DNA of 64,000 nt. Source: Patescibacteria group bacterium. Its GTDB lineage: Bacteria; Patescibacteriota; Minisyncoccia; Phycocordibacterales; UBA9973. Made by a program: the position numbers and the translations under genes. The stretch is from positions 102,719 through 166,718 of the forward strand of contig JBBTUE010000004.1 of the NCBI GenBank assembly GCA_038063915.1, read 5' to 3'. The stretch's first letter is position 1, and each line of letters opens with the position of its first letter. Under the pieces are notes generated by a model, which ran no database searches, was not told the origin of the DNA, and saw only the letters and a program-made list of their open reading frames with translations. Positions 4,771 through 56,506 of the stretch are shown here, one piece after another.

Positions 4771-5193
4771 ATGCGGATTAAAGTTAAAAAATTAAAGGAG
4801 GATGCGAAGTTGCCGACATATGCACATCCAGGAGATGTAGGCATGGATATGTATGCTATGGAAACGGTCACAATTCCTCCGATGGGGCACTACCGTTTCT
4901 GGCATGGTTTTGCTCTAGAATTTCCGGTAGGTTACGGTGGTATAATAATGGACAAAGGTAGTATGTCAAAAGCTGGACTTATACATATGGGTGGAGTCTA
5001 TGATGCAGGGTATAGAGGAGAATACAATACACATCTAGTAAATCTTGGCACAGAGCCCTATACAGTAGAGGAGGGAGACAAAGTTTCTCAGCTCGTCATA
5101 ATGCCAGTAGAAATAGTTGAATTTGAAGTTACGGATACACTTAGTGAGTCATCACGTGGTGAGGGAATGTTTGGAAGTACAGGGAAGAAATGA
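4771..5193 (+). CDS. dut: dUTP diphosphatase
   Basis: dUTPase motifs (AHPGDVGMD, DAGYRGE, C-terminal RGEGMFGSTG). The ORF-track start at 4717 is TTG; the ATG at 4771 fits the family N-terminus. Confidence 0.85.
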   Translation: MRIKVKKLKEDAKLPTYAHPGDVGMDMYAMETVTIPPMGHYRFWHGFALEFPVGYGGIIMDKGSMSKAGLIHMGGVYDAGYRGEYNTHLVNLGTEPYTVEEGDKVSQLVIMPVEIVEFEVTDTLSESSRGEGMFGSTGKK

Positions 5194-6917
5194 TAAAAGA
5201 AAAAATTATACAAATTATAGACGATGCACTAAAAAATCTTGGCATTAAAGCCGAAGGTATTATTCTTGAGCATCCTGCAGATATTGAAATGGGCGATTAT
5301 TCCACCAATGTCGCAATGGCTTATGCTAAGCAGTTAGGAACAAACCCTCGAGAGTTGGCAGAAAAAATTAAAATAGAACTAGAAAAAAACTTACCTAAAG
5401 AAATTGAAAAAGTTGAAGTCGCAGGTGCAGGGTTTATAAATTTTTACTTATCTCGGGAATTTTTCACAAATTCAACTAAGGAAATACTAAAACAAAAAGA
5501 AAACTGGGGGAAAAATGAAATACTATCTAGCAAGAAGGTCATGGTGGAGTATACACAGCCGAACCCGTTCAAGCCATTCCACATAGGCCATCTTATGAGT
5601 AATGCTATAGGTGAATCTATCTCTCGTATTGTTGAATTCTCCGGGGCAAAAACTGTAAGAGCAAATTACCAAGGGGATGTAGGTCCTCATGTAGCCAAAG
5701 CTATATACGGCATCATGTGGTTATCTGATAACGCGTCGAATGAAAAGCTACAAACAACTGACCCAGCTGGAGAATTGGCAGAGTGGATCGGTGAGTGCTA
5801 CACCAAAGGTGCACAAGCTTACGAAGAAAATGAAAGCATTAAAATTCAAATCGATGAAATAAATAAAAAGATATATGATAAGAGTGATAACGAGATAAAT
5901 AAAATATATGACTGGGGACGCGAAGTAACGTTGTGTGCGTTTGAAGAAATATACCAGATTCTAGGTACAAAGTTTAACTATTATTTTTTTGAGAGTGAAA
6001 TGGCGCCAATAGGTGAGAAGATTGTACGAGAGAATATTGGAGGAGTATTCACCGAGAGTGAGGGCGCAATTGTATTCCATGCCGAGAATTACGACCCAAA
6101 GCTCCATACTAGAGTCTTTATCACATCTCTAGGCATTCCTTTATATGAGACAAAAGAAGTGGGGCTGACTGTGACTAAATTCGAGAAAGAAAATCCTGAT
6201 ATCTCTATTATCACTACCGCCATTGAGCAAGGAGAATATATGAAAGTTGTACAAAAGGCAGTATCGCTAATTCACCCTGATTACGAATCACGTATGAAGC
6301 ATGTTACTCACGGTATGATGCGACTGACTTCTGGGAAAATGTCATCTCGCAAAGGTAATGTAGTGACAGGCGAGTCGTTATTGCGAGACTCTATGGATGT
6401 AGTGCGTGAGAAAGTCGCGAGTAGAGATTTATCAGCTGAAGAAAAAGACACTATAGCTAAAGTTGTCGGAGTAGCAGCTCTAAAGTACTCCATACTTCGT
6501 TCATCTCTTGGCTCAGATATCGTTTATGATTTTGAGAAGTCTATTTCATTTGAAGGGGATTCGGGTCCATACTTGCAATACACTGCAGTGCGTGCGAATT
6601 CTATTATTAAAAAAAGTGAAGCAGAGGGTATACACTTAGTATATAAAAATATACCAACCGACATTACAATACTTGAGAAAAATCTTTACAAATTTCCTGA
6701 AATCGTCGCCCGCTCATACTTACTCCTTGAACCCCATCATATAGCGACATATCTGACCGAGCTTTCCAGTGCGTTCAATACTTTTTATGCGAATACGCAG
6801 ATAGTAAATAAAAGTGACCCATACGCGCCTTACCGCGTCGCCCTTGTTGAAGCATTTCACCAGACTATGAAGAACGGTCTCTATCTCCTCGGCATAAAAA
6901 CCCCAGATAAGATGTAA
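5190..6917 (+). CDS. argS: arginyl-tRNA synthetase
   Basis: Class I HIGH (PFHIGHLMSNAIG), KMSSRKG, C-terminal DALR-type domain ending in M; ATGA overlap with dut. Confidence 0.9.
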   Translation: MIKEKIIQIIDDALKNLGIKAEGIILEHPADIEMGDYSTNVAMAYAKQLGTNPRELAEKIKIELEKNLPKEIEKVEVAGAGFINFYLSREFFTNSTKEILKQKENWGKNEILSSKKVMVEYTQPNPFKPFHIGHLMSNAIGESISRIVEFSGAKTVRANYQGDVGPHVAKAIYGIMWLSDNASNEKLQTTDPAGELAEWIGECYTKGAQAYEENESIKIQIDEINKKIYDKSDNEINKIYDWGREVTLCAFEEIYQILGTKFNYYFFESEMAPIGEKIVRENIGGVFTESEGAIVFHAENYDPKLHTRVFITSLGIPLYETKEVGLTVTKFEKENPDISIITTAIEQGEYMKVVQKAVSLIHPDYESRMKHVTHGMMRLTSGKMSSRKGNVVTGESLLRDSMDVVREKVASRDLSAEEKDTIAKVVGVAALKYSILRSSLGSDIVYDFEKSISFEGDSGPYLQYTAVRANSIIKKSEAEGIHLVYKNIPTDITILEKNLYKFPEIVARSYLLLEPHHIATYLTELSSAFNTFYANTQIVNKSDPYAPYRVALVEAFHQTMKNGLYLLGIKTPDKM

Positions 6918-6949: not shown

Positions 6950-9900
6950 ATGGCTGGGAAAGAAGACAATAATAAATCGGAAGTAGCGCTCCGCGAGGAG
7001 CGGGTTTTGGAGTTTTGGCAGGAGAATAATACTTTTCAAAAAACTTTAGAAAAAGATTCACCAAAAGGCGAGTTCGTTTTTTACGAAGGCCCTCCGACTG
7101 CCAATGGTAAACCAGGAATTCATCACCTCGAAGCCAGAGCTTTCAAGGATGCAATTCCAAGATATAAAACCATGCGTGGATATCATGTACGTCGTAAAGG
7201 TGGCTGGGATACTCATGGGCTACCCGTAGAACTCCAAGTGGAAAAGAAGCTTGAATTAAACTCCAAGAAAGCTATTGAAGAGTATGGTATAGCAGAGTTC
7301 AATAAACAGTGCAAGGAAAGTGTCTGGGAATATTTAGATATTTGGAATAAATTTACCAAGCGTATAGGTTACTGGGTGGACCAAGAGAATCCATATGTTA
7401 CTTATCATAATGATTATATAGAATCTGTCTGGAATGTTCTTGCCCAAGTAGAAGATAGGAAACTTCTATATAAAGATTACAAAGTAGTGCCATGGTGCCC
7501 GCGCTGTGGTACAGCCCTTTCTTCCCACGAACTTGCGCAAGGATACCAAGATGATAAAGATTTGTCGGTAACTGCAAAGTTTAAAATAAAAGGCGTTGTT
7601 GATGGTTATTTTTTGGCTTGGACTACAACTCCATGGACACTAGCAGGCAATGTTGCTCTTGCGGTTGGAAGTGAGATTATCTATGTTGAGGCAAAAGTTG
7701 GGCCGGAGGTTTTAGTTTTAGCAAAGGATAGGCTTTCTATAATTACTGATCCATATGAAATAGTGGCAGAACACAAAGGTAGTGAAATGGTTGGTATGGA
7801 ATACGAGCCACTTTATCCATATCTGTCTACTCTTGATGTGGGAGATGAAAAATTAAAAAATGCATATAAAGTTTATCCGGCAGATTTCGTAAATACTACA
7901 GATGGTACTGGTATTGTGCATACAGCAGTCATGTATGGTCAGGATGACTTTGAGCTCGGTACAAAAATTGGTCTGCCAAAGTTCCACACAGTCGATGATA
8001 GTGGTCACTTTGTAAAAGGCACTGGTTTCTTGGAAGGAAGATTTGTTAAGGATGAAGAAGTCGCAGTTGATATTATCAAAGATCTGGCACACAGAGGCCT
8101 TTTATTTAAGAAAGAAAAATATGAACACTCATATCCTCACTGTTGGCGCTGTAAAACTGCGCTCATATACTATGCTCGTGATTCTTGGTATATCAGAATG
8201 TCTGATCCGAGTGTGAAAGATAAACTAATAGCTGAAAATAAAGAAATAAATTGGGAGCCACCACATATTCGCGATGGGCGCTTTGGAGAGTGGCTCAAAG
8301 ATATAAAAGATTGGGCAATATCTCGTGAGAGATATTGGGGGACGCCGCTACCTATATGGCAGAAAGCCGACGGTAGTAATATTGTAGTAGATTCGATTGA
8401 TACACTTAAAAAATACATCAAAAAAAGTGGTAACAGTTACTTCATCATGCGTCATGGTGGGACAGAAGGTAATTTAGAGGAGCTCGTGAGCTATAAACAT
8501 CAAGAGACTGACAATTTAACTGAAAATGGTAAAGAGCAAGTACGCGTATCTGCAGATAAATTAAAAGATCATAATATAGATATAGTAATATATTCTCCTT
8601 TTACTCGCACTACCGAGACTGCTACGATTGTAAAAGAAGTGCTTGGTCTTGGTAGTGAGCAGGTAATGCCCGACGCACGACTAATAGAAATAAACCCAGG
8701 GATATATGATGGTAAGAATTGGAGTGAATATCACGAGCATTTATATAATATGGAGCGTGGATGGTTTGTAAGGAAAATTCCTGAAGGAGAATCCCTACAA
8801 GATGTCACCGAAAGGTCAGGAGCAGTACTTTATGATCTCGAGGCTAAGTATTCTGGTAAGAATATTCTAATTATTACTCATGGTGGCCCTGCATGGGCTA
8901 TGTATGTCGCTTCTGGTATTTATGAGAAGCGTAATACTGAATATAAAAAAGCAGACACCCATGTATTTGTGAAAGAATTCAAACAATTTGGTAATGCTGA
9001 AGTAAGAGAACTACCATTCGTACCACTACCCCATGATAAACACAATATTTTAGATTTACATAAGCCATATATAGATGAAGTAGAGCTTTTTGACGAAGAA
9101 AGCCGCCCAATGACTCGAGTCAAAGAAGTCATGGATGTATGGTTCGACTCTGGGGCCATGCCCTTCGCGCAAGATCACTATCCGTTCGAAAATAAAGAAT
9201 GGGTGGATACTAAAGGATTCCCCGCCGACTATATTTGTGAAGCGATAGATCAGACTCGTGGATGGTTCTATACTTTGCACGCGATAGGCGTACTCACAGG
9301 TAGAGGCAAAGCCTTTAAAAATGTCATCTGCCTTGGACATATCTTAGATAAAGATGGGAAGAAAATGTCCAAGTCTGTCGGCAACGTCGTCGACCCATGG
9401 GAAATGATGGATAAATACGGAGTAGATACATTACGCCTATGGATGTATAGCGTGAATCAGCCCGGTGAATCAAAGAACTTTGACGAGAAGACAGTTTCCG
9501 AGCTCAACAACAAAGTATTTAATTTATTTTATAATGTACTCGCATTCTACGAACTATATAGAGACAAATCCATTGAAGATAGGGAATATAAAAAGTCAGA
9601 TAATATTCTTGATCAATGGATAATTGCCCGGCTAAACAAGCTCGTCTTAGATATGACGAATAGTATGGATAATTATAAACTTTTAGAACCAGTAAGAGGT
9701 ATACGCGAATTTGTCGATGAGCTTTCTACATGGTATGTCCGTCGCTCACGTGAGCGGATTAAGGACGGGGATGTAGATGTGAAGCAGACTCTGTACTTCG
9801 TATTAAAAACGTTTTCAAAAATTTTAGCTCCATTTGCACCGTTTGCAGCTGAAGACATATGGCAGAAGTTAAAAAATACTTCTGATGCAGAGAGTGTGCA

Positions 9901-10414
9901 CCTAGCAGAATGGCCAGAAGGAGGAAAAGTTAACGAGGATTTGATTTCTGAAATGCAAATTGTACGACACGTAGTGACTCTTGGACTTGAAGCGAGACAA
10001 AAAGCAAATATCAAAGTTCGTCAGCCACTAAGTGAACTAAAAGTCAAGAGCTATCAACTAAAAGATGAGTATATAGAGATTATTAAAGATGAGCTAAATA
10101 TAAAAGCTGTCGTCTACGATGACTCTATTGAGAATCCAGTCGAACTCGATTCTCATATAACTCTAGATCTAAAAAAAGAAGGTCAATATCGTGAACTTGT
10201 TCGTGCTATTCAAGATATGCGCAAGAAGGAGGGGTTAAACCCAAATGATGTCATTGTTCTTACCATTGCTACTAATACCGAAGGTCAAGAAATCGTAAAT
10301 AAATGGAAAAGTGAACTCATGAAAATAGCTGGAGCTAAAGAGGTTAATATTGCCGATAATCAAGGCACTGAAGTTAAGATTGACGAATTAACATTCCTAG
10401 TCAGTTTTTCATAG
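6950..10414 (+). CDS. ileS: isoleucyl-tRNA synthetase (type 2, Thermus/eukaryote-like) with inserted histidine-phosphatase domain
   Basis: PPTANGKPGIHH, GWDTHGLPVE, ISRERYWGTPLPIW, HKPYIDEVEL, DVWFDSGAMPFAQ, KMSKSVGN. Collinear with T. thermophilus IleRS except for a ~200-aa insert. Confidence 0.9.
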   Translation: MAGKEDNNKSEVALREERVLEFWQENNTFQKTLEKDSPKGEFVFYEGPPTANGKPGIHHLEARAFKDAIPRYKTMRGYHVRRKGGWDTHGLPVELQVEKKLELNSKKAIEEYGIAEFNKQCKESVWEYLDIWNKFTKRIGYWVDQENPYVTYHNDYIESVWNVLAQVEDRKLLYKDYKVVPWCPRCGTALSSHELAQGYQDDKDLSVTAKFKIKGVVDGYFLAWTTTPWTLAGNVALAVGSEIIYVEAKVGPEVLVLAKDRLSIITDPYEIVAEHKGSEMVGMEYEPLYPYLSTLDVGDEKLKNAYKVYPADFVNTTDGTGIVHTAVMYGQDDFELGTKIGLPKFHTVDDSGHFVKGTGFLEGRFVKDEEVAVDIIKDLAHRGLLFKKEKYEHSYPHCWRCKTALIYYARDSWYIRMSDPSVKDKLIAENKEINWEPPHIRDGRFGEWLKDIKDWAISRERYWGTPLPIWQKADGSNIVVDSIDTLKKYIKKSGNSYFIMRHGGTEGNLEELVSYKHQETDNLTENGKEQVRVSADKLKDHNIDIVIYSPFTRTTETATIVKEVLGLGSEQVMPDARLIEINPGIYDGKNWSEYHEHLYNMERGWFVRKIPEGESLQDVTERSGAVLYDLEAKYSGKNILIITHGGPAWAMYVASGIYEKRNTEYKKADTHVFVKEFKQFGNAEVRELPFVPLPHDKHNILDLHKPYIDEVELFDEESRPMTRVKEVMDVWFDSGAMPFAQDHYPFENKEWVDTKGFPADYICEAIDQTRGWFYTLHAIGVLTGRGKAFKNVICLGHILDKDGKKMSKSVGNVVDPWEMMDKYGVDTLRLWMYSVNQPGESKNFDEKTVSELNNKVFNLFYNVLAFYELYRDKSIEDREYKKSDNILDQWIIARLNKLVLDMTNSMDNYKLLEPVRGIREFVDELSTWYVRRSRERIKDGDVDVKQTLYFVLKTFSKILAPFAPFAAEDIWQKLKNTSDAESVHLAEWPEGGKVNEDLISEMQIVRHVVTLGLEARQKANIKVRQPLSELKVKSYQLKDEYIEIIKDELNIKAVVYDDSIENPVELDSHITLDLKKEGQYRELVRAIQDMRKKEGLNPNDVIVLTIATNTEGQEIVNKWKSELMKIAGAKEVNIADNQGTEVKIDELTFLVSFS
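8426..9049 (+). other. in-frame histidine phosphatase (phosphoglycerate-mutase-like) domain inserted in IleS
   Basis: RHG motif (FIMRHGGTEGN), LTENGKEQV, DIVIYSPFTRTTETA, FPEGES-like KIPEGESLQDV, ILIITHGGPAWAM. Sits between IleS segments ...PLPIWQKADGSNIVVDSIDTLKKY and LDLHKPYIDEVEL, which are ~8 aa apart in T. thermophilus IleRS. Confidence 0.7.
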
Positions 10415-10415
10415 T

Positions 10416-10856
10416 ATGGCTTCAATAGAACAAGTTGCATACGGTATAGTAGTAGCTATCAAAGAAGATGAATGGAAATTCTTGATACTTCTACAAGATG
10501 AGACATTTGTAAATTGGAGTTTTCCAAAAGGTAAAACTGAAAAAGGCGAGACTGTACCGCTTGATATAGCTATGCGTGAATTGGGCGAAGAGACTGGTAT
10601 CACTGTTATCGATATACTAGACTGTCCACTTATGGAGGAGGAATATCGGTATGAAAAACGAGGTGATACTTACCACCGCACTAATAAATATTTCTTGGGT
10701 GTCGTCAAAGATAAATCTGTAAAGATACAAGAAGGTGAAATTATAGAATACAAATGGGCTACATATAAAGAAGCCTCAGAAACCTTTGTTTTTAAGAAGG
10801 AATCTCGTGTAGAAATCCTTCAACAAGCACAAGAATATCTAAATATGTTAAAATAG
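10416..10856 (+). CDS. NUDIX hydrolase (Ap4A-hydrolase-like)
   Basis: Nudix box WSFPKGKTEKGETVPLDIAMRELGEETGI. Confidence 0.8.
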   Translation: MASIEQVAYGIVVAIKEDEWKFLILLQDETFVNWSFPKGKTEKGETVPLDIAMRELGEETGITVIDILDCPLMEEEYRYEKRGDTYHRTNKYFLGVVKDKSVKIQEGEIIEYKWATYKEASETFVFKKESRVEILQQAQEYLNMLK

Positions 10857-10860
10857 AAGA

Positions 10861-11502
10861 ATGAAGATCAAAAAACTAGGGCATTGTTGTTTAGTTATAG
10901 AGGTAAATAGCAAAAGGATAATGACAGATCCAGGTTCTTATTCCACTCTCCAAGTTGAAGAGAAAAATATAGATATTATACTTATTACTCATGAACACCC
11001 CGACCACCTGCATGTGGATTCTTTGAAAGTTATTCTAGAGAATAATAAAGATGTAAAAGTAATTACAAATAGCGCAGTAGGAAAAATTCTTACTGAAGCT
11101 GGGATTGCATATGAATTGTTGGAAGAAGGAGGAAGGGGAGAATTTGAGGGGATATTATTTGAAGGATACGGAGATCATCATGCAGAGGTTTATGAAGAAT
11201 TTGGCCAAGTTCAAAATACTGGCTACTTTATAGACAATACACTTTTTTATCCTGGAGATGCATTTACTAATCCACATAAACAAGTAGAAATACTTGCTTT
11301 ACCTGTTGCCGGGCCATGGATGAAAATAAAAAATGCCATACATTATGCTCTTGAGTTAAAACCAAAAGTTTGTTTTCCTGTTCATGACGGGATGATAAAA
11401 GAAGATAGACCAGGGCCTATTTATAATCTGCCTAAAAATATTCTGACTCAAAGTGGGATTGAGTTTAAAGTGTTAGAAGTAAATAAAGAAGAAGAGTTAT
11501 AA
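10861..11502 (+). CDS. metallo-beta-lactamase-fold hydrolase
   Basis: ITHEHPDH (HxHxDH) motif. Confidence 0.75.
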   Translation: MKIKKLGHCCLVIEVNSKRIMTDPGSYSTLQVEEKNIDIILITHEHPDHLHVDSLKVILENNKDVKVITNSAVGKILTEAGIAYELLEEGGRGEFEGILFEGYGDHHAEVYEEFGQVQNTGYFIDNTLFYPGDAFTNPHKQVEILALPVAGPWMKIKNAIHYALELKPKVCFPVHDGMIKEDRPGPIYNLPKNILTQSGIEFKVLEVNKEEEL

Positions 11503-12086
11503 TGCACCACATATATCACACCCATGGGTTTATATTAGGTTCGCGCAATACTGGCGAGGCGAATAAAATGCTCACTGTTTATACTCGTGAGATGGGGCTC
11601 GTGCGAGTGGCATCTCAAGGTATACGATTCCATAAATCCAAACTACGTTTTGCTCTCCAAGATTATTCATACATAAATATGGATTTGGTTAGAGGTCGCG
11701 AGATTTGGCGTGTTACTTCAGCTACTAGTATTAATTCATTTCCATATGCTCGTTCGACTAAAGAGTCACTTTTGCTGATTGCACGGGTAAGCAAGCTTAT
11801 CGAGAGGCTCTGTGATGGGGAAGAAGCGAACGATAGAATATTTGATGATTTTATTCAGGCATTATATTTGCTCGACGATGTAAATTTATCTATTGATGTG
11901 CGTGAAGCACTAGAGCTTCATCTCGTGCTTCGCATTATGAGCACACTCGGATATATAGGGGAGTCTAGCTCTGTCCGTGAATATTTGTCATTGCCATTTG
12001 ATAAAGTTGAAACGAGTAGGTTTTTGAAGGAAAAGAAATCAATTATAGCGCATATAAATAAGGCTATAAATGAAAGCCAGCTATAA
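11502..12086 (+). CDS. recO: DNA repair protein RecO (short form)
   Basis: N-terminal OB region THGFILGSRNTGEANKMLTVYTREMGLVRVASQGIRFHKSK matches the RecO pattern GIVLRxRDYGExDR...AKGARR; 194 aa. Confidence 0.55.
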   Translation: MHHIYHTHGFILGSRNTGEANKMLTVYTREMGLVRVASQGIRFHKSKLRFALQDYSYINMDLVRGREIWRVTSATSINSFPYARSTKESLLLIARVSKLIERLCDGEEANDRIFDDFIQALYLLDDVNLSIDVREALELHLVLRIMSTLGYIGESSSVREYLSLPFDKVETSRFLKEKKSIIAHINKAINESQL

Positions 12087-55808: not shown

Positions 55809-56357
55809 CTAATCCAGCTGATATTCCCATCCCGGTTGCCAAGATCTTGTTTTGCGCCAATCTTCCGCTAGAGCTTGTTTCCAGGTCTTGCCTTTAAGTA
55901 GGACATCTAGTGAGAGCTGTGGGGCCTTGTGACCAACTAAGGCAACATGTTTGCCGTCGTAATTATTTTTTAAAAATTCTAGGAAATCTGCAATACGTAC
56001 CTTTACATCTTCATAACTTTCTCCTTCAGGAAATTTATTATAAATACATTCATCCTCTTGCATTGGTTCTACAATAGCAGAAGGCGCGGCATTTAGTTTT
56101 CCATAGTTACATTCTCTTAATCTTGAATCAGGAATGATTGGGTAGACTCCATCCCAAGCTAATTTTGCTGACTTGGTTGCACGTTGTAAATCTGAGCAGA
56201 ATACGACATTAAATTTCTTATCTTTAGTCTGGTCTTTTAATTCAATAGATTGCTTTACCCCTAAGTCTGAAAGATCGACATCGGACCATCCCGATGAGAT
56301 TTCCTTTTCATTATCTGTTGTCGTACCGTGGACAAAATACGTGATATAGACTGACAT
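55809..56357 (-). CDS. histidine phosphatase (phosphoglycerate-mutase-like) family protein
   Basis: YFVHGTTTDNE (RHG-like, with Arg replaced by Val), SDLQRATKSAKLA, KFPEGESYEDV, ALVGHKAPQ. Closely parallels the domain inserted in IleS. Confidence 0.6.
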   Translation of the reverse strand: MSVYITYFVHGTTTDNEKEISSGWSDVDLSDLGVKQSIELKDQTKDKKFNVVFCSDLQRATKSAKLAWDGVYPIIPDSRLRECNYGKLNAAPSAIVEPMQEDECIYNKFPEGESYEDVKVRIADFLEFLKNNYDGKHVALVGHKAPQLSLDVLLKGKTWKQALAEDWRKTRSWQPGWEYQLD

Positions 56358-56433: not shown

Positions 56434-56504
56434 TTGGGGATCGTCTAATGGTAGGACAGTGGCCTTTGAAGCCATTAATTGGGGTTCGAATCCCTGTCCC
56501 CAAG
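56434..56504 (+). tRNA. tRNA-Gln (anticodon TTG)
   Basis: ttgggga-tc-gtc taatggtag gac a gtggc ctttgaa gccat taat tgggg ttcgaat ccctg tccccaa g; 3-bp D-stem as in bacterial tRNA-Gln. Confidence 0.8.
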
Positions 56505-56506
56505 CA

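What the first reader, a model, noticed from the sequence alone, without database searches (positions are those of the whole stretch)
8426..9049. In-frame histidine-phosphatase (PGM-like) domain inserted into isoleucyl-tRNA synthetase
Seen in sequence: IleS is collinear with type-2 IleRS on both sides of the insert (...ISRERYWGTPLPIW...DSIDTLKKY before it; LDLHKPYIDEVEL...DVWFDSGAMPFAQ after it). Between these lie ~200 aa carrying every hallmark of the histidine phosphatase superfamily: RHGxxxxN, LTxxGxxQ, SPxxRxxxTA, PEGES and a THGG motif. In T. thermophilus IleRS the same junction is ~8 aa, containing a Zn-binding Cys cluster that is absent here. The reading frame is continuous, so this is not two adjacent genes. 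Inference: a phosphatase module has been grafted onto an essential aaRS next to the editing domain and the KMSKS half of the Rossmann fold. Its substrate could be a phosphorylated nucleotide or Ap4A, or the tRNA 3' end (2',3'-cyclic or 3'-phosphate repair). I am not aware of this being described.
Basis: partly seen in the sequence, partly recalled or inferred. Interest (0 to 1): 0.8.

Follow-up and report, generated by a model that had tools for sequence, protein, structure and literature searches.

The report
Phosphatase domain nested inside isoleucyl-tRNA synthetase
An essential translation enzyme (isoleucyl-tRNA synthetase) of an uncultured Patescibacteria bacterium carries a complete phosphatase domain, with all its catalytic residues, spliced into one of its surface loops; in related bacteria the same phosphatase is a separate gene touching ileS, so the two enzymes are probably partners in a function nobody has described.

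Summary
Window 6950-10414 (+) is one 1154-aa ORF, a complete type-2 IleRS. Residues 493-700 (nt 8426-9049) are a histidine-phosphatase branch-1 domain (PF00300, E 2e-31). It replaces about 4 residues at the tip of the CP3 subdomain.

It is not an artefact. All 120 closest protein clusters, five intact ORFs in other MAGs and 33 metagenome loci share the architecture. The phosphate-pocket residues (R501, H502, R553, H644) are invariant in 200/200 copies. AlphaFold folds the insert (pLDDT 92) and the whole enzyme (pLDDT 90.5) confidently.

New findings:
- The closest free-standing relatives are genes abutting an insert-less ileS. Of 73 classifiable metagenome loci, 33 are nested and 37 have ileS in the locus (36 adjacent). 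The two forms never co-occur.
- A separate clade of the same domain sits at the homologous CP3 site of ValRS in Gracilibacteria/Peregrinibacteria-type bacteria, in 1-4 copies.

Best reading: a catalytically competent phosphomonoesterase that is an obligate partner of IleRS. Its substrate is unknown. tRNA 3'-end healing is the most novel reading not excluded.

Public records name these proteins only generically, and seven full-text searches found no description. I rate it a new variant of a known kind, interest about 0.7.

The parts
6950..10414 (+). ileS: single 1154-aa ORF, a type-2 isoleucyl-tRNA synthetase with a nested phosphatase domain
   Evidence: TIGR00392 865.6 bits, cutoff 621.4; identical protein P0155 in NCBI as 'class I tRNA ligase family protein [Patescibacteria group bacterium]'; AF2 full length pLDDT 90.5, pTM 0.82
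7115..7126 (+). G56-I-H-H59, the non-canonical G/AXHH form of the class I HIGH signature
   Evidence: this motif type is described for IleRS2 in PMC10485003
7541..8140 (+). CP1 editing domain (aa ~198-397), with WTTTPWT (224) and GTGIVH (319)
   Evidence: matches isolated IleRS editing-domain structures 1wk8/1wny/1ue0; motifs
8357..8425 (+). N-terminal half of the CP3 subdomain (…IWQKADGSNIVVDSIDTLKKYIKK); the CxxC of the ancestral Zn knuckle is lost here
   Evidence: CP3 definition from PMC7191050
8426..9049 (+). Nested histidine-phosphatase (branch 1) domain, aa 493-700; Pfam core aa 498-653 = nt 8441-8908
   Evidence: AF2 alone pLDDT 92.1, pTM 0.90; Foldseek best hits 4ij5/4ij6 PspA E 3e-14, TM 0.70, then Rv2419c, PhoE, TIGAR, dPGMs
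8450..8458 (+). R501-H502-G503: RHG motif; H502 is the predicted phospho-accepting nucleophile
   Evidence: R and H present in 200/200 IleRS-nested copies; invariant in A1, A2 and A3
8606..8608 (+). R553, second phosphate-pocket arginine (SPFTR)
   Evidence: 200/200
8789..8791 (+). E614 (PEGES), predicted general acid/base
   Evidence: 193/200 E
8879..8881 (+). H644 (THGG), second catalytic histidine
   Evidence: 200/200
9050..9133 (+). C-terminal half of CP3 (ILDLHKPYIDEVELFDEESRPMTRVKEVM) leading into DVWFDSG; the second Cys pair of the ancestral Zn knuckle is lost
9362..9376 (+). KMSKS loop (aa 805-809)
5190..6917 (+). argS, the upstream neighbour. In relatives the free-standing phosphatase gene lies between argS and ileS.
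11502..12086 (+). recO, the conserved downstream marker of the dut-argS-ileS-…-recO syntenic block

Best explanation
**What is shown.** The gene encodes a complete, apparently working type-2 IleRS. It has the GIHH variant of HIGH, KMSKS, the CP1 editing motifs and the anticodon-binding and C-terminal domains. A ~205-aa histidine phosphatase of the PhoE/CobC/PspA-like branch is nested at the tip of its CP3 subdomain. The insert folds on its own and keeps the full catalytic set of the superfamily.

**Chemistry (inferred from the family).** H502 attacks a phosphomonoester and forms a phospho-histidine intermediate. R501, R553 and H644 hold the phosphate. E614 protonates the leaving group.

**Origin (inferred from the complementary distribution).** The domain is the counterpart of a small phosphatase gene that in related Patescibacteria abuts the 5' end of an insert-less ileS, usually just after argS. 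In the window's lineage that gene has ended up inside ileS.

**Function (inferred).** Phosphatase and IleRS are obligate partners. Where they are separate genes, their abutting arrangement would suit expression as a pair. Here they are tethered permanently, so the phosphatase acts on a phosphomonoester produced, consumed or encountered at the synthetase. The substrate is not identified. I rank the candidates as follows:
1. A nucleotide-type or tRNA-terminal phosphate.
2. A phospho-metabolite whose level tunes charging.
3. A phospho-protein.

A glycolytic mutase role is unlikely.
For: **Reality of the architecture.**
- One ORF with Pfam and NCBIfam support.
- Intact orthologous ORFs of 1137-1198 aa in L002, L003, L004 and L006.
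- All 120 best 90%-identity clusters (63-76% identical to the window protein; P0155 is the window protein itself) carry PF00300.
- About 100 of the top 154 representatives of 50%-identity clusters in the exhaustive search are IleRS-embedded.

**Active enzyme.**
- R/H/R/H are present in 200/200 nested copies and E in 193/200, while the rest of the insert falls to ~30% identity.
- The insert model has pLDDT 92 and hits solved His-phosphatases at E 3e-14.

**Host intact.** Signature and editing motifs are present. The full-length model has pLDDT 90.5 and pTM 0.82. No second IleRS is in the window.

**Partnership with ileS.**
- 4 of 6 closest standalone relatives sit next to an insert-less ileS.
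- Among the 80 best metagenome loci, 34 are standalone with ileS immediately downstream. The median gap is about -6 nt and the downstream ileS ORFs that are complete in the locus (18) are 919-983 aa. Two more are convergent-adjacent, 1 has ileS elsewhere in the locus, 33 are nested, 7 cannot be determined and only 3 have no ileS nearby. No locus has both forms.
- Loci with the nested form keep the dut-argS-ileS-…-recO order (L005, cut at its 5' end, shows only ileS-recO), and none has a free copy of the phosphatase.

**Convergence.**
- A separate clade of the domain (83 of 84 copies in one NJ clade; 24% identity to the IleRS copies; different linkers) is nested at the homologous ISRQ…DTWFSS CP3 site of ValRS. 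This holds for 71 of the 120 sequences examined: P0043 plus its 119 best relatives.
- Extra sites and 2-4 tandem copies mostly keep the catalytic residues.
Against: - No substrate, activity or physical interaction was tested.
- I could not obtain coordinates. The position of the phosphatase active site relative to the synthetic site, the editing site and the tRNA acceptor path is unknown.
- The inserts are mildly acidic (mean net charge -3.6). That gives no sign of an RNA-binding surface.
- The nearest solved structures are all small-metabolite phosphatases at ~22% identity.
- Adjacency alone could explain how the gene got into ileS without any functional link.
- CP3 is a structurally variable, presumably permissive subdomain.
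- Tandem arrays of 2-4 diverged, mostly catalytically complete copies are not what a single precise tRNA-end activity would need.
- The two uninserted ValRS loci examined have no adjacent phosphatase gene.
Confidence: 0.6

Rival explanations
1. Passenger enzyme. The insert is an ordinary housekeeping metabolite phosphatase (PhoE/GpmB/PspA-like). It happened to lie next to ileS in a compact operon and was captured by a local rearrangement into a permissive loop. It works independently of IleRS and gains only co-expression.
For: - Structural neighbours are all metabolite phosphatases.
- Only the catalytic core is conserved, and the surface drifts fast. Host-versus-insert distance correlation is 0.04 among close relatives, against 0.57 for the N-half versus C-half control.
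- The inserts are acidic.
- CP3 differs in topology among solved IleRSs, so it is probably tolerant of insertions.
- Adjacency makes capture mechanistically easy.
- Tandem diverged copies resemble a multi-specificity phosphatase toolkit.
Against: - 70 of 73 classifiable loci tie this subfamily to ileS. That is far tighter than usual for an unrelated operon neighbour.
- An independent clade of the same superfamily was nested at the same CP3 site of ValRS in another Patescibacteria class, where two uninserted ValRS loci show no adjacency that could explain capture.
- The window genome also has a separate His-phosphatase-like gene at 55809-56357.
Confidence: 0.25
2. Built-in tRNA end-healing. The phosphatase removes a 2'/3'-phosphate (or one derived from a cyclic phosphate or pyrophosphate) from the A76 end of tRNA bound to the synthetase. 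This restores a chargeable end after nuclease or toxin damage. It is the first reader's boldest option.
For: - The domain is linked only to tRNA-handling class Ia enzymes (IleRS, ValRS) and sits beside argS.
- The same CP3 site was used twice independently.
- Free-standing relatives lie in translation gene clusters such as smpB-infC-rpmI-rplT-argS-hp-ileS.
- The closest non-aaRS relatives found by word search are RNase H-phosphatase fusions (NF005567).
Against: - No geometry could be measured.
- The domain surface is acidic.
- To my knowledge (not checked here) no histidine-phosphatase family member is known to act on RNA ends.
- Tandem arrays are unnecessary for this job.
- There is no PADLOC defence-system match.
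Confidence: 0.12
3. Catalytically silent module. The domain serves only as a structural prop replacing the lost CP3 Zn knuckle, or as a ligand-sensing regulatory domain.
For: - The CP3 cysteines are lost in the window, L002 and L003.
- 9 of 83 ValRS copies have N in place of the second His.
Against: - L004-L006 keep the Zn cysteines and still carry the insert.
- R/H/R/H are kept in 200/200 IleRS copies across ~30% overall identity. That is hard to explain without catalysis or at least phosphate binding.
Confidence: 0.04
4. Assembly, frameshift or gene-calling artefact: two genes wrongly read as one.
For: One relative (L001, GCA_034680565.1) has the gene in three pieces, with a TAA stop and a frameshift.
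Against: - The window has a continuous ORF.
- The same architecture occurs in independent assemblies from NCBI, JGI, ENA and Logan.
- IleRS sequence continues collinearly on both sides of the insert.
- There is no composition break.
Confidence: 0.01

Closest known systems
Type-2 isoleucyl-tRNA synthetase (IleRS2), e.g. Priestia megaterium IleRS2 (PDB 8C8V series) and T. thermophilus IleRS (1ILE)
   Same: - Collinear over the whole length outside the insert (813 and 747 bits).
- Shares CP1 editing, KMSKS and the type-2 C-terminal domains (DUF5915).
- Carries the G/AXHH signature-motif variant described for part of the IleRS2 family.
   Different: - ~205 extra residues form a second predicted catalytic domain at the CP3 tip.
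- The CP3 Zn-knuckle cysteines are lost.
Histidine phosphatase superfamily branch 1: PhoE (1H2E), PspA phosphoserine phosphatase (4IJ5), CobC, Rv2419c GpgP, GpmB
   Same: - Same fold (Foldseek E 3e-14 to 1e-11, TM ~0.7).
- Same RHG…R…E…H catalytic set.
- Same size, ~200 aa.
   Different: - Only ~22-25% identity to any solved member.
- Below every NCBIfam equivalog cutoff.
- Nested inside another enzyme rather than free-standing.
- Substrate unknown.
Bifunctional RNase H / acid phosphatase (Rv2228c-type, NF005567)
   Same: - A His-phosphatase of the same branch fused to a nucleic-acid enzyme.
- These are the closest non-aaRS hits of the word-indexed search (P0004, P0005, 30-33% identity).
   Different: - An end-to-end fusion, not a nested one.
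- The partner is RNase H, not an aaRS.
- Score 82.6 against a cutoff of 326.
IleRS with an appended GNAT domain (NCBIfam NF040702 ileS_w_GNAT), and the CP1 editing domain itself, as precedents for extra catalytic modules in class Ia synthetases
   Same: The principle is the same: an additional enzymatic domain built into IleRS. CP1 is likewise a domain nested in the connective peptide.
   Different: - Different fold and chemistry.
- NF040702 scores 303 against a cutoff of 1999.
- No curated model or paper for a phosphatase-bearing IleRS or ValRS was found.

Membership tests
Isoleucine--tRNA ligase (TIGR00392), type 2 | Whole-protein HMM score above the curated cutoff | tested here: met
   865.6 bits against 621.4, in two stretches split by the insert
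Isoleucine--tRNA ligase (TIGR00392), type 2 | Class I signature motifs (HIGH or the IleRS2 G/AXHH variant; KMSKS) | tested here: met
   GIHH at 56-59 and KMSKS at 805-809; G/AXHH is a natural IleRS2 variant (PMC10485003)
Isoleucine--tRNA ligase (TIGR00392), type 2 | CP1 editing domain with its conserved motifs | tested here: met
   aa 198-397 match the isolated editing-domain structures 1wk8/1wny; WTTTPWT and GTGIVH are present
Isoleucine--tRNA ligase (TIGR00392), type 2 | Isoleucine-specific aminoacylation of tRNA-Ile | not testable with these tools
   Needs an enzyme assay
Histidine phosphatase superfamily, branch 1 (PF00300) | HMM score above the gathering threshold | tested here: met
   109.7 bits (114.5 when excised) against 21.7
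Histidine phosphatase superfamily, branch 1 (PF00300) | Catalytic core: RHG nucleophile His, two Arg, second His, acidic proton donor | tested here: met
   R501, H502, R553, E614 and H644; kept in 200/200 nested copies (E in 193/200)
Histidine phosphatase superfamily, branch 1 (PF00300) | α/β fold of the superfamily | tested here: met
   AF2 pLDDT 92.1, pTM 0.90; Foldseek E 3e-14, TM 0.70 to 4ij5/4ij6, then PhoE, TIGAR and dPGM
Histidine phosphatase superfamily, branch 1 (PF00300) | Phosphomonoesterase or mutase activity through phospho-His | not testable with these tools
   Needs an assay of wild type against H502A
2,3-BPG-dependent phosphoglycerate mutase (TIGR01258 / NF038349) | Score above the family cutoff | tested here: not met
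   23.8 against 81.7 and 64.6 against 225
Alpha-ribazole phosphatase CobC (TIGR03162) | Score above the equivalog cutoff | tested here: not met
   82.8 against 162.9
Phosphoserine phosphatase PspA (NF045917) | Score above the equivalog cutoff | tested here: not met
   67.7 against 350, although 4IJ5 is the best structural match
Phosphohistidine phosphatase SixA (TIGR00249) | Score above the equivalog cutoff | tested here: not met
   36.0 against 74.5, and only the first half matches
Known anti-phage defence components (PADLOC-DB) | Any model match to the insert or to the free-standing relatives | tested here: not met
   No match for the insert or P0079; a weak Cas4-like-nuclease match for P0124 (E 5e-4, 18 bits), which I take as noise

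The most novel reading that the evidence does not exclude
The nested phosphatase is a new kind of synthetase-resident tRNA quality-control site. While tRNA-Ile (or tRNA-Val in the ValRS versions) is held by the enzyme, the phosphatase strips a blocking 2'/3'-phosphate or pyrophosphate from A76, left for example by ribonucleases or by tRNA-end-modifying toxins. End repair and recharging would then happen on one protein. This would add a third catalytic function, 'end healing', to class Ia synthetases alongside synthesis and editing.
Probability: 0.12. Interest if true: 0.9.

Novelty: new variant of a known kind. Interest (0 to 1): 0.7.

Why it matters
**For synthetase biology.** Aminoacyl-tRNA synthetases are among the most conserved and best-studied enzymes. 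Extra catalytic domains in them, such as editing domains, have repeatedly revealed new steps in translation quality control. Here a phosphatase with a fully conserved catalytic core is a fixed partner of IleRS across a large branch of the Patescibacteria, either nested or as the abutting gene. A separate clade of the same domain has been nested at the same loop of ValRS. That pattern points to a translation-linked phosphomonoester substrate that is not part of the textbook aminoacylation cycle.

**Why it is testable.** The protein can be expressed and compared with an H502A mutant. The free-standing versus nested pairs give natural controls.

**For annotation.**
- NCBI records give these proteins only the generic name 'class I tRNA ligase family protein'; JGI records call them isoleucyl-tRNA synthetase.
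- Pathway pipelines could miscount them as 'phosphoglycerate mutase family' enzymes in metabolic reconstructions of these reduced genomes.

Tried and rejected
- **Literature.** Seven full-text searches found no description of a phosphatase-bearing IleRS or ValRS. They covered IleRS or tRNA synthetase combined with histidine phosphatase or phosphoglycerate mutase, CPR plus aaRS insertions, the Pfam names, and CP2/CP3. A 2026 survey of 96,219 IleRS sequences does not mention phosphatase or Patescibacteria in its main text.
- **First homologue search.** The word-indexed search with the insert returned only 5 hits and suggested rarity. The exhaustive search and the full-length search corrected this.
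- **Cluster look-up.** The listing of cluster members added no taxonomy.
- **AFDB fold search.** afdb50 was not available. I could not see how UniProt/AFDB names these proteins.
- **Geometry.** No coordinates are returned by the structure tools. The distance and orientation of the phosphatase pocket relative to the tRNA path could not be measured. The papers read give CP3 only as lying 'opposite CP2'.
- **Defence-system hypothesis.** There were no PADLOC matches for the insert.
- **dPGM, CobC, PspA or SixA identity.** All scores are below the curated cutoffs.
- **ValRS adjacency.** Two uninserted ValRS loci have no neighbouring phosphatase gene.
- **Insert versus host evolution.**
  - Among 120 close relatives the distances are uncorrelated (r = 0.04, against 0.57 for the N-half versus C-half control).
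  - The two main insert types need 13 changes on a host NJ tree (33 when labels are shuffled).
  - The nearest host neighbour shares the insert type in 89 of 105 cases.
  - This suggests fast or cassette-like evolution. NJ trees of a star-like radiation are weak, so I treat it as suggestive only.
- **dN/dS.** Not computed, because synonymous sites are expected to be saturated at these distances.
Full report
**1. The observation**

Window 6950-10414 (+) is one uninterrupted ORF of 1154 aa. Pfam finds a class I synthetase catalytic domain split into two stretches, a His_Phos_1 domain at aa 498-653 (E 1.8e-31), Anticodon_1 and DUF5915. NCBIfam calls the protein ileS at 865.6 bits against a cutoff of 621.4.

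Against the closest solved IleRS (8c8w, a variant in the P. megaterium IleRS2 series), residues 5-489 align to chain residues 3-477 and residues 697-1090 to 482-886. About 207 residues therefore replace about 4. Base composition shows no break across the insert.

The gene sits in a compact block: dut, argS, ileS, Nudix, MBL-fold, recO.

**2. Not an artefact, and not rare**

- Intact single ORFs of 1137-1198 aa with the same insert occur in four other Patescibacteria MAGs (L002, L003, L004, L006). A fifth (L005) is cut by a contig end.
- The window protein itself is in NCBI as 'class I tRNA ligase family protein [Patescibacteria group bacterium]'.
- All 120 best 90%-identity clusters (63-76% identical) carry PF00300. 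Source names include Nomurabacteria, Paceibacterota, Pacebacteria and Minisyncoccia.
- In an exhaustive HMMER search of 1.84 billion cluster representatives, about 100 of the top 154 hits to the insert are IleRS-embedded.
- One relative (L001) has the gene broken by a TAA codon and a frameshift. This is either a pseudogene or an assembly error.

**3. Anatomy**

The insertion point lies between the ISRxRxWG motif and DxWFDSG. This is the CP3 subdomain as defined for C. albicans IleRS. That paper notes that CP3 topology differs among the Thermus, Staphylococcus and Candida enzymes and that only the Thermus one binds zinc.

Insert-less relatives (L010) and some insert-bearing ones (L004-L006) keep CxxC … CxC/CxxC on either side. 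The window, L002 and L003 have lost these four cysteines but keep the CP-core cysteines 183, 186, 398 and 401.

The host enzyme looks intact. It has GIHH, the G/AXHH variant of HIGH known in IleRS2 (PMC10485003). It also has KMSKS, WTTTPWT and GTGIVH.

AlphaFold2 gives pLDDT 92.1 and pTM 0.90 for the insert alone, and pLDDT 90.5 and pTM 0.82 for the full protein. Low confidence is confined to the first residues and one loop at about 660-680.

**4. The insert is a catalytically complete phosphatase**

- Across 94 diverse full-length sequences, R501, H502, G527, S549, R553 and H644 are invariant. N508 and E614 are at least 90% conserved.
- Across 200 IleRS-nested copies, R/H/R/H are present in 200/200 and E614 in 193/200. 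The rest of the domain falls to about 30% identity.
- Foldseek places the model among branch-1 histidine phosphatases. The best hit is PspA phosphoserine phosphatase 4IJ5/4IJ6 (E 3e-14, TM 0.70). Then come Rv2419c, a riboflavin-pathway phosphatase, TIGAR, PhoE and the dPGMs, all at about 22% identity.
- It scores below every curated equivalog cutoff: CobC 82.8 against 162.9, PspA 67.7 against 350, archaeal dPGM 64.6 against 225, and SixA 36 against 74.5.

It is therefore a member of the superfamily but of no characterised subfamily. The inserts are mildly acidic, with a mean net charge of -3.6.

**5. Where it came from, and the key association**

The closest free-standing relatives (about 190 aa, 32-40% identical) end right after the last β-strand of the domain. 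Four of the six whose contigs I fetched lie directly next to an insert-less ileS and downstream of argS:

| Locus | Arrangement |
|---|---|
| L008 | argS … hp, then ileS |
| L009 | argS … hp, then ileS 7 nt downstream |
| L010/L011 | argS, hp and ileS abutting (3-nt and 1-nt gaps) |
| L012 | argS-hp, with ileS convergent |

A metagenome scan with a profile of these standalones returned 80 loci:

| Class | Loci |
|---|---|
| Standalone, ileS immediately downstream on the same strand | 34 |
| Standalone, ileS convergent-adjacent | 2 |
| Standalone, ileS elsewhere in the locus | 1 |
| Nested in an ileS ORF of about 1150-1230 aa | 33 |
| Cut by contig ends, undetermined | 7 |
| Standalone, no ileS nearby | 3 |

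In the first class the median gap is about -6 nt. The 18 downstream ileS ORFs that are complete in their locus are 919-983 aa, so they are insert-less. No locus has both forms.

Loci with the nested form keep the dut-argS-ileS-…-recO order where the contig extends that far, and none has a free copy of the phosphatase. So 70 of 73 classifiable loci tie this phosphatase subfamily to ileS.

The adjacent and nested forms are mutually exclusive. This is the classic signature of a gene fusion between functional partners. In neighbour-joining clustering, IleRS-nested and ileS-adjacent copies are intermixed.

**6. Recurrence**

- Some IleRSs carry 2-3 tandem copies at the CP3 site (P0071, P0137, P0150).
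- Others carry a second copy between the catalytic body and the anticodon-binding domain (P0116, P0133, P0140).
- P0043 is a ValRS with at least four copies.
- I searched with P0043 and then examined 120 ValRS sequences: P0043 plus its 119 best relatives. Of these, 71 carry 1-4 His_Phos copies. The few source names given are Gracilibacteria or Peregrinibacteria.
- In most of them the insert lies between ISRQ and DTWFSS, the homologous CP3 hairpin. A second site lies upstream of ISRQ.
- The ValRS copies form their own clade (83 of 84). They are only 24% identical to the IleRS copies and use different linkers. The nesting in ValRS is therefore independent.
- Most tandem copies keep the catalytic residues.

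**7. Evolutionary tempo**

- Among the 120 close IleRS relatives, host and insert distances are uncorrelated (r = 0.04, against 0.57 for the N-half versus C-half control).
- Two main insert types are scattered over the host tree, needing 13 changes against 33 when labels are shuffled.
- Nearest host neighbours usually share a type (89 of 105).
- L006 is an example, with a host 62-69% identical and an insert only 32% identical.

This fits fast surface drift or occasional cassette exchange. I treat it as suggestive only.

**8. Interpretation**

*Shown:*
- A real, widespread nested architecture.
- An intact host.
- A conserved catalytic core in the insert.
- Tight and exclusive genomic coupling to ileS.
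- Convergent nesting in ValRS.

*Inferred:*
- The phosphatase is active through a phospho-H502 intermediate.
- It is an obligate partner of the synthetase.
- The nested form arose from the neighbouring gene.

*Not resolved:* the substrate. A passenger-enzyme reading remains possible (0.25). It explains the metabolite-phosphatase-like fold neighbours, the acidic surface and the tandem arrays. It explains poorly the 96% linkage to ileS and the independent use of the same loop in ValRS.

The tRNA-end-healing idea is attractive but untested (0.12). I could not measure geometry because the tools return no coordinates. A purely structural role is unlikely, given the conserved active site and its presence alongside an intact Zn knuckle in L004-L006. 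There is no match to known defence systems.

**9. Novelty**

Seven full-text searches found no description. A recent survey of 96,219 IleRS sequences does not mention it in its main text. NCBIfam has an exception model for IleRS with a GNAT domain but none for a phosphatase-bearing form. Public records name these proteins only generically.

The thing is therefore present in databases but apparently undescribed. I rate it a new variant of a known kind (a synthetase with an extra catalytic module), with interest about 0.7.

Noticed in passing
window 55809-56357 (-): A second, free-standing His-phosphatase-like ORF of 182 aa, 29% identical to the insert. It has VHG instead of RHG (FVHGTTTDN) but keeps the later R, E and H. 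It lies next to tRNA-Gln (56434-56505).
   Followed up: partly
window 7115-7126 (IleRS aa 56-59): The HIGH signature is GIHH. This is the non-canonical G/AXHH form linked in IleRS2 to mupirocin hyper-resistance (PMC10485003). Some insert-less relatives have the canonical form (L010: HYGH).
   Followed up: partly
window IleRS aa 470-492 and 701-728 (nt 8357-8425, 9050-9133); L002, L003 versus L004-L006: The four cysteines of the CP3 Zn knuckle are lost in the window, L002 and L003. They are retained in other insert-bearing IleRSs and in insert-less ones. Loss of zinc binding therefore followed the insertion and did not precede it.
   Followed up: partly
L001 7932-7934 and ~8880-8950 (GCA_034680565.1): The orthologous ileS has an in-frame TAA where the window has a Ser codon, plus a frameshift, so it is called as three genes. 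This is either a pseudogene or an assembly error. The locus also has HAD and HD hydrolase genes downstream in place of the Nudix gene.
   Followed up: partly
L005 31-2370: This insert-bearing IleRS lacks about 50 residues spanning QTRGWFY…KMSKS in the alignment. It may be an inactive synthetase or a mis-assembly.
   Followed up: no
P0110, P0298, P0333, P0307 (proteins): Other odd domains turn up in these class Ia synthetases. P0110 (IleRS) has an IS200-type Y1 transposase domain inside the editing region plus a C-terminal GNAT. Two ValRSs carry PF04480 (DUF559). One ValRS carries an HU domain (PF00216).
   Followed up: no
P0275-P0393 (ValRS relatives): ValRSs whose few source names are Gracilibacteria or Peregrinibacteria commonly carry 1-4 His_Phos domains at the CP3 site or upstream of ISRQ, with lengths up to 1626 aa. 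Nine of 83 copies have N instead of the second catalytic His.
   Followed up: partly
window 10416-10856 (+): A Nudix hydrolase gene starts 2 nt after the ileS stop codon. It has a weak PADLOC match (PDC-S07, E 6e-7). It is conserved in L002 but not in L001, L003, L004 or L006.
   Followed up: no
L013 4001-4618: One free-standing relative (P0141) is not next to ileS. It sits between adk and secY in the ribosomal-protein operon, on the opposite strand.
   Followed up: no
L006 6049-6645 versus its flanks: This IleRS is 62-69% identical to the window's in its body but only 32% in the insert. It is an example of the decoupled evolution of insert and host.
   Followed up: partly
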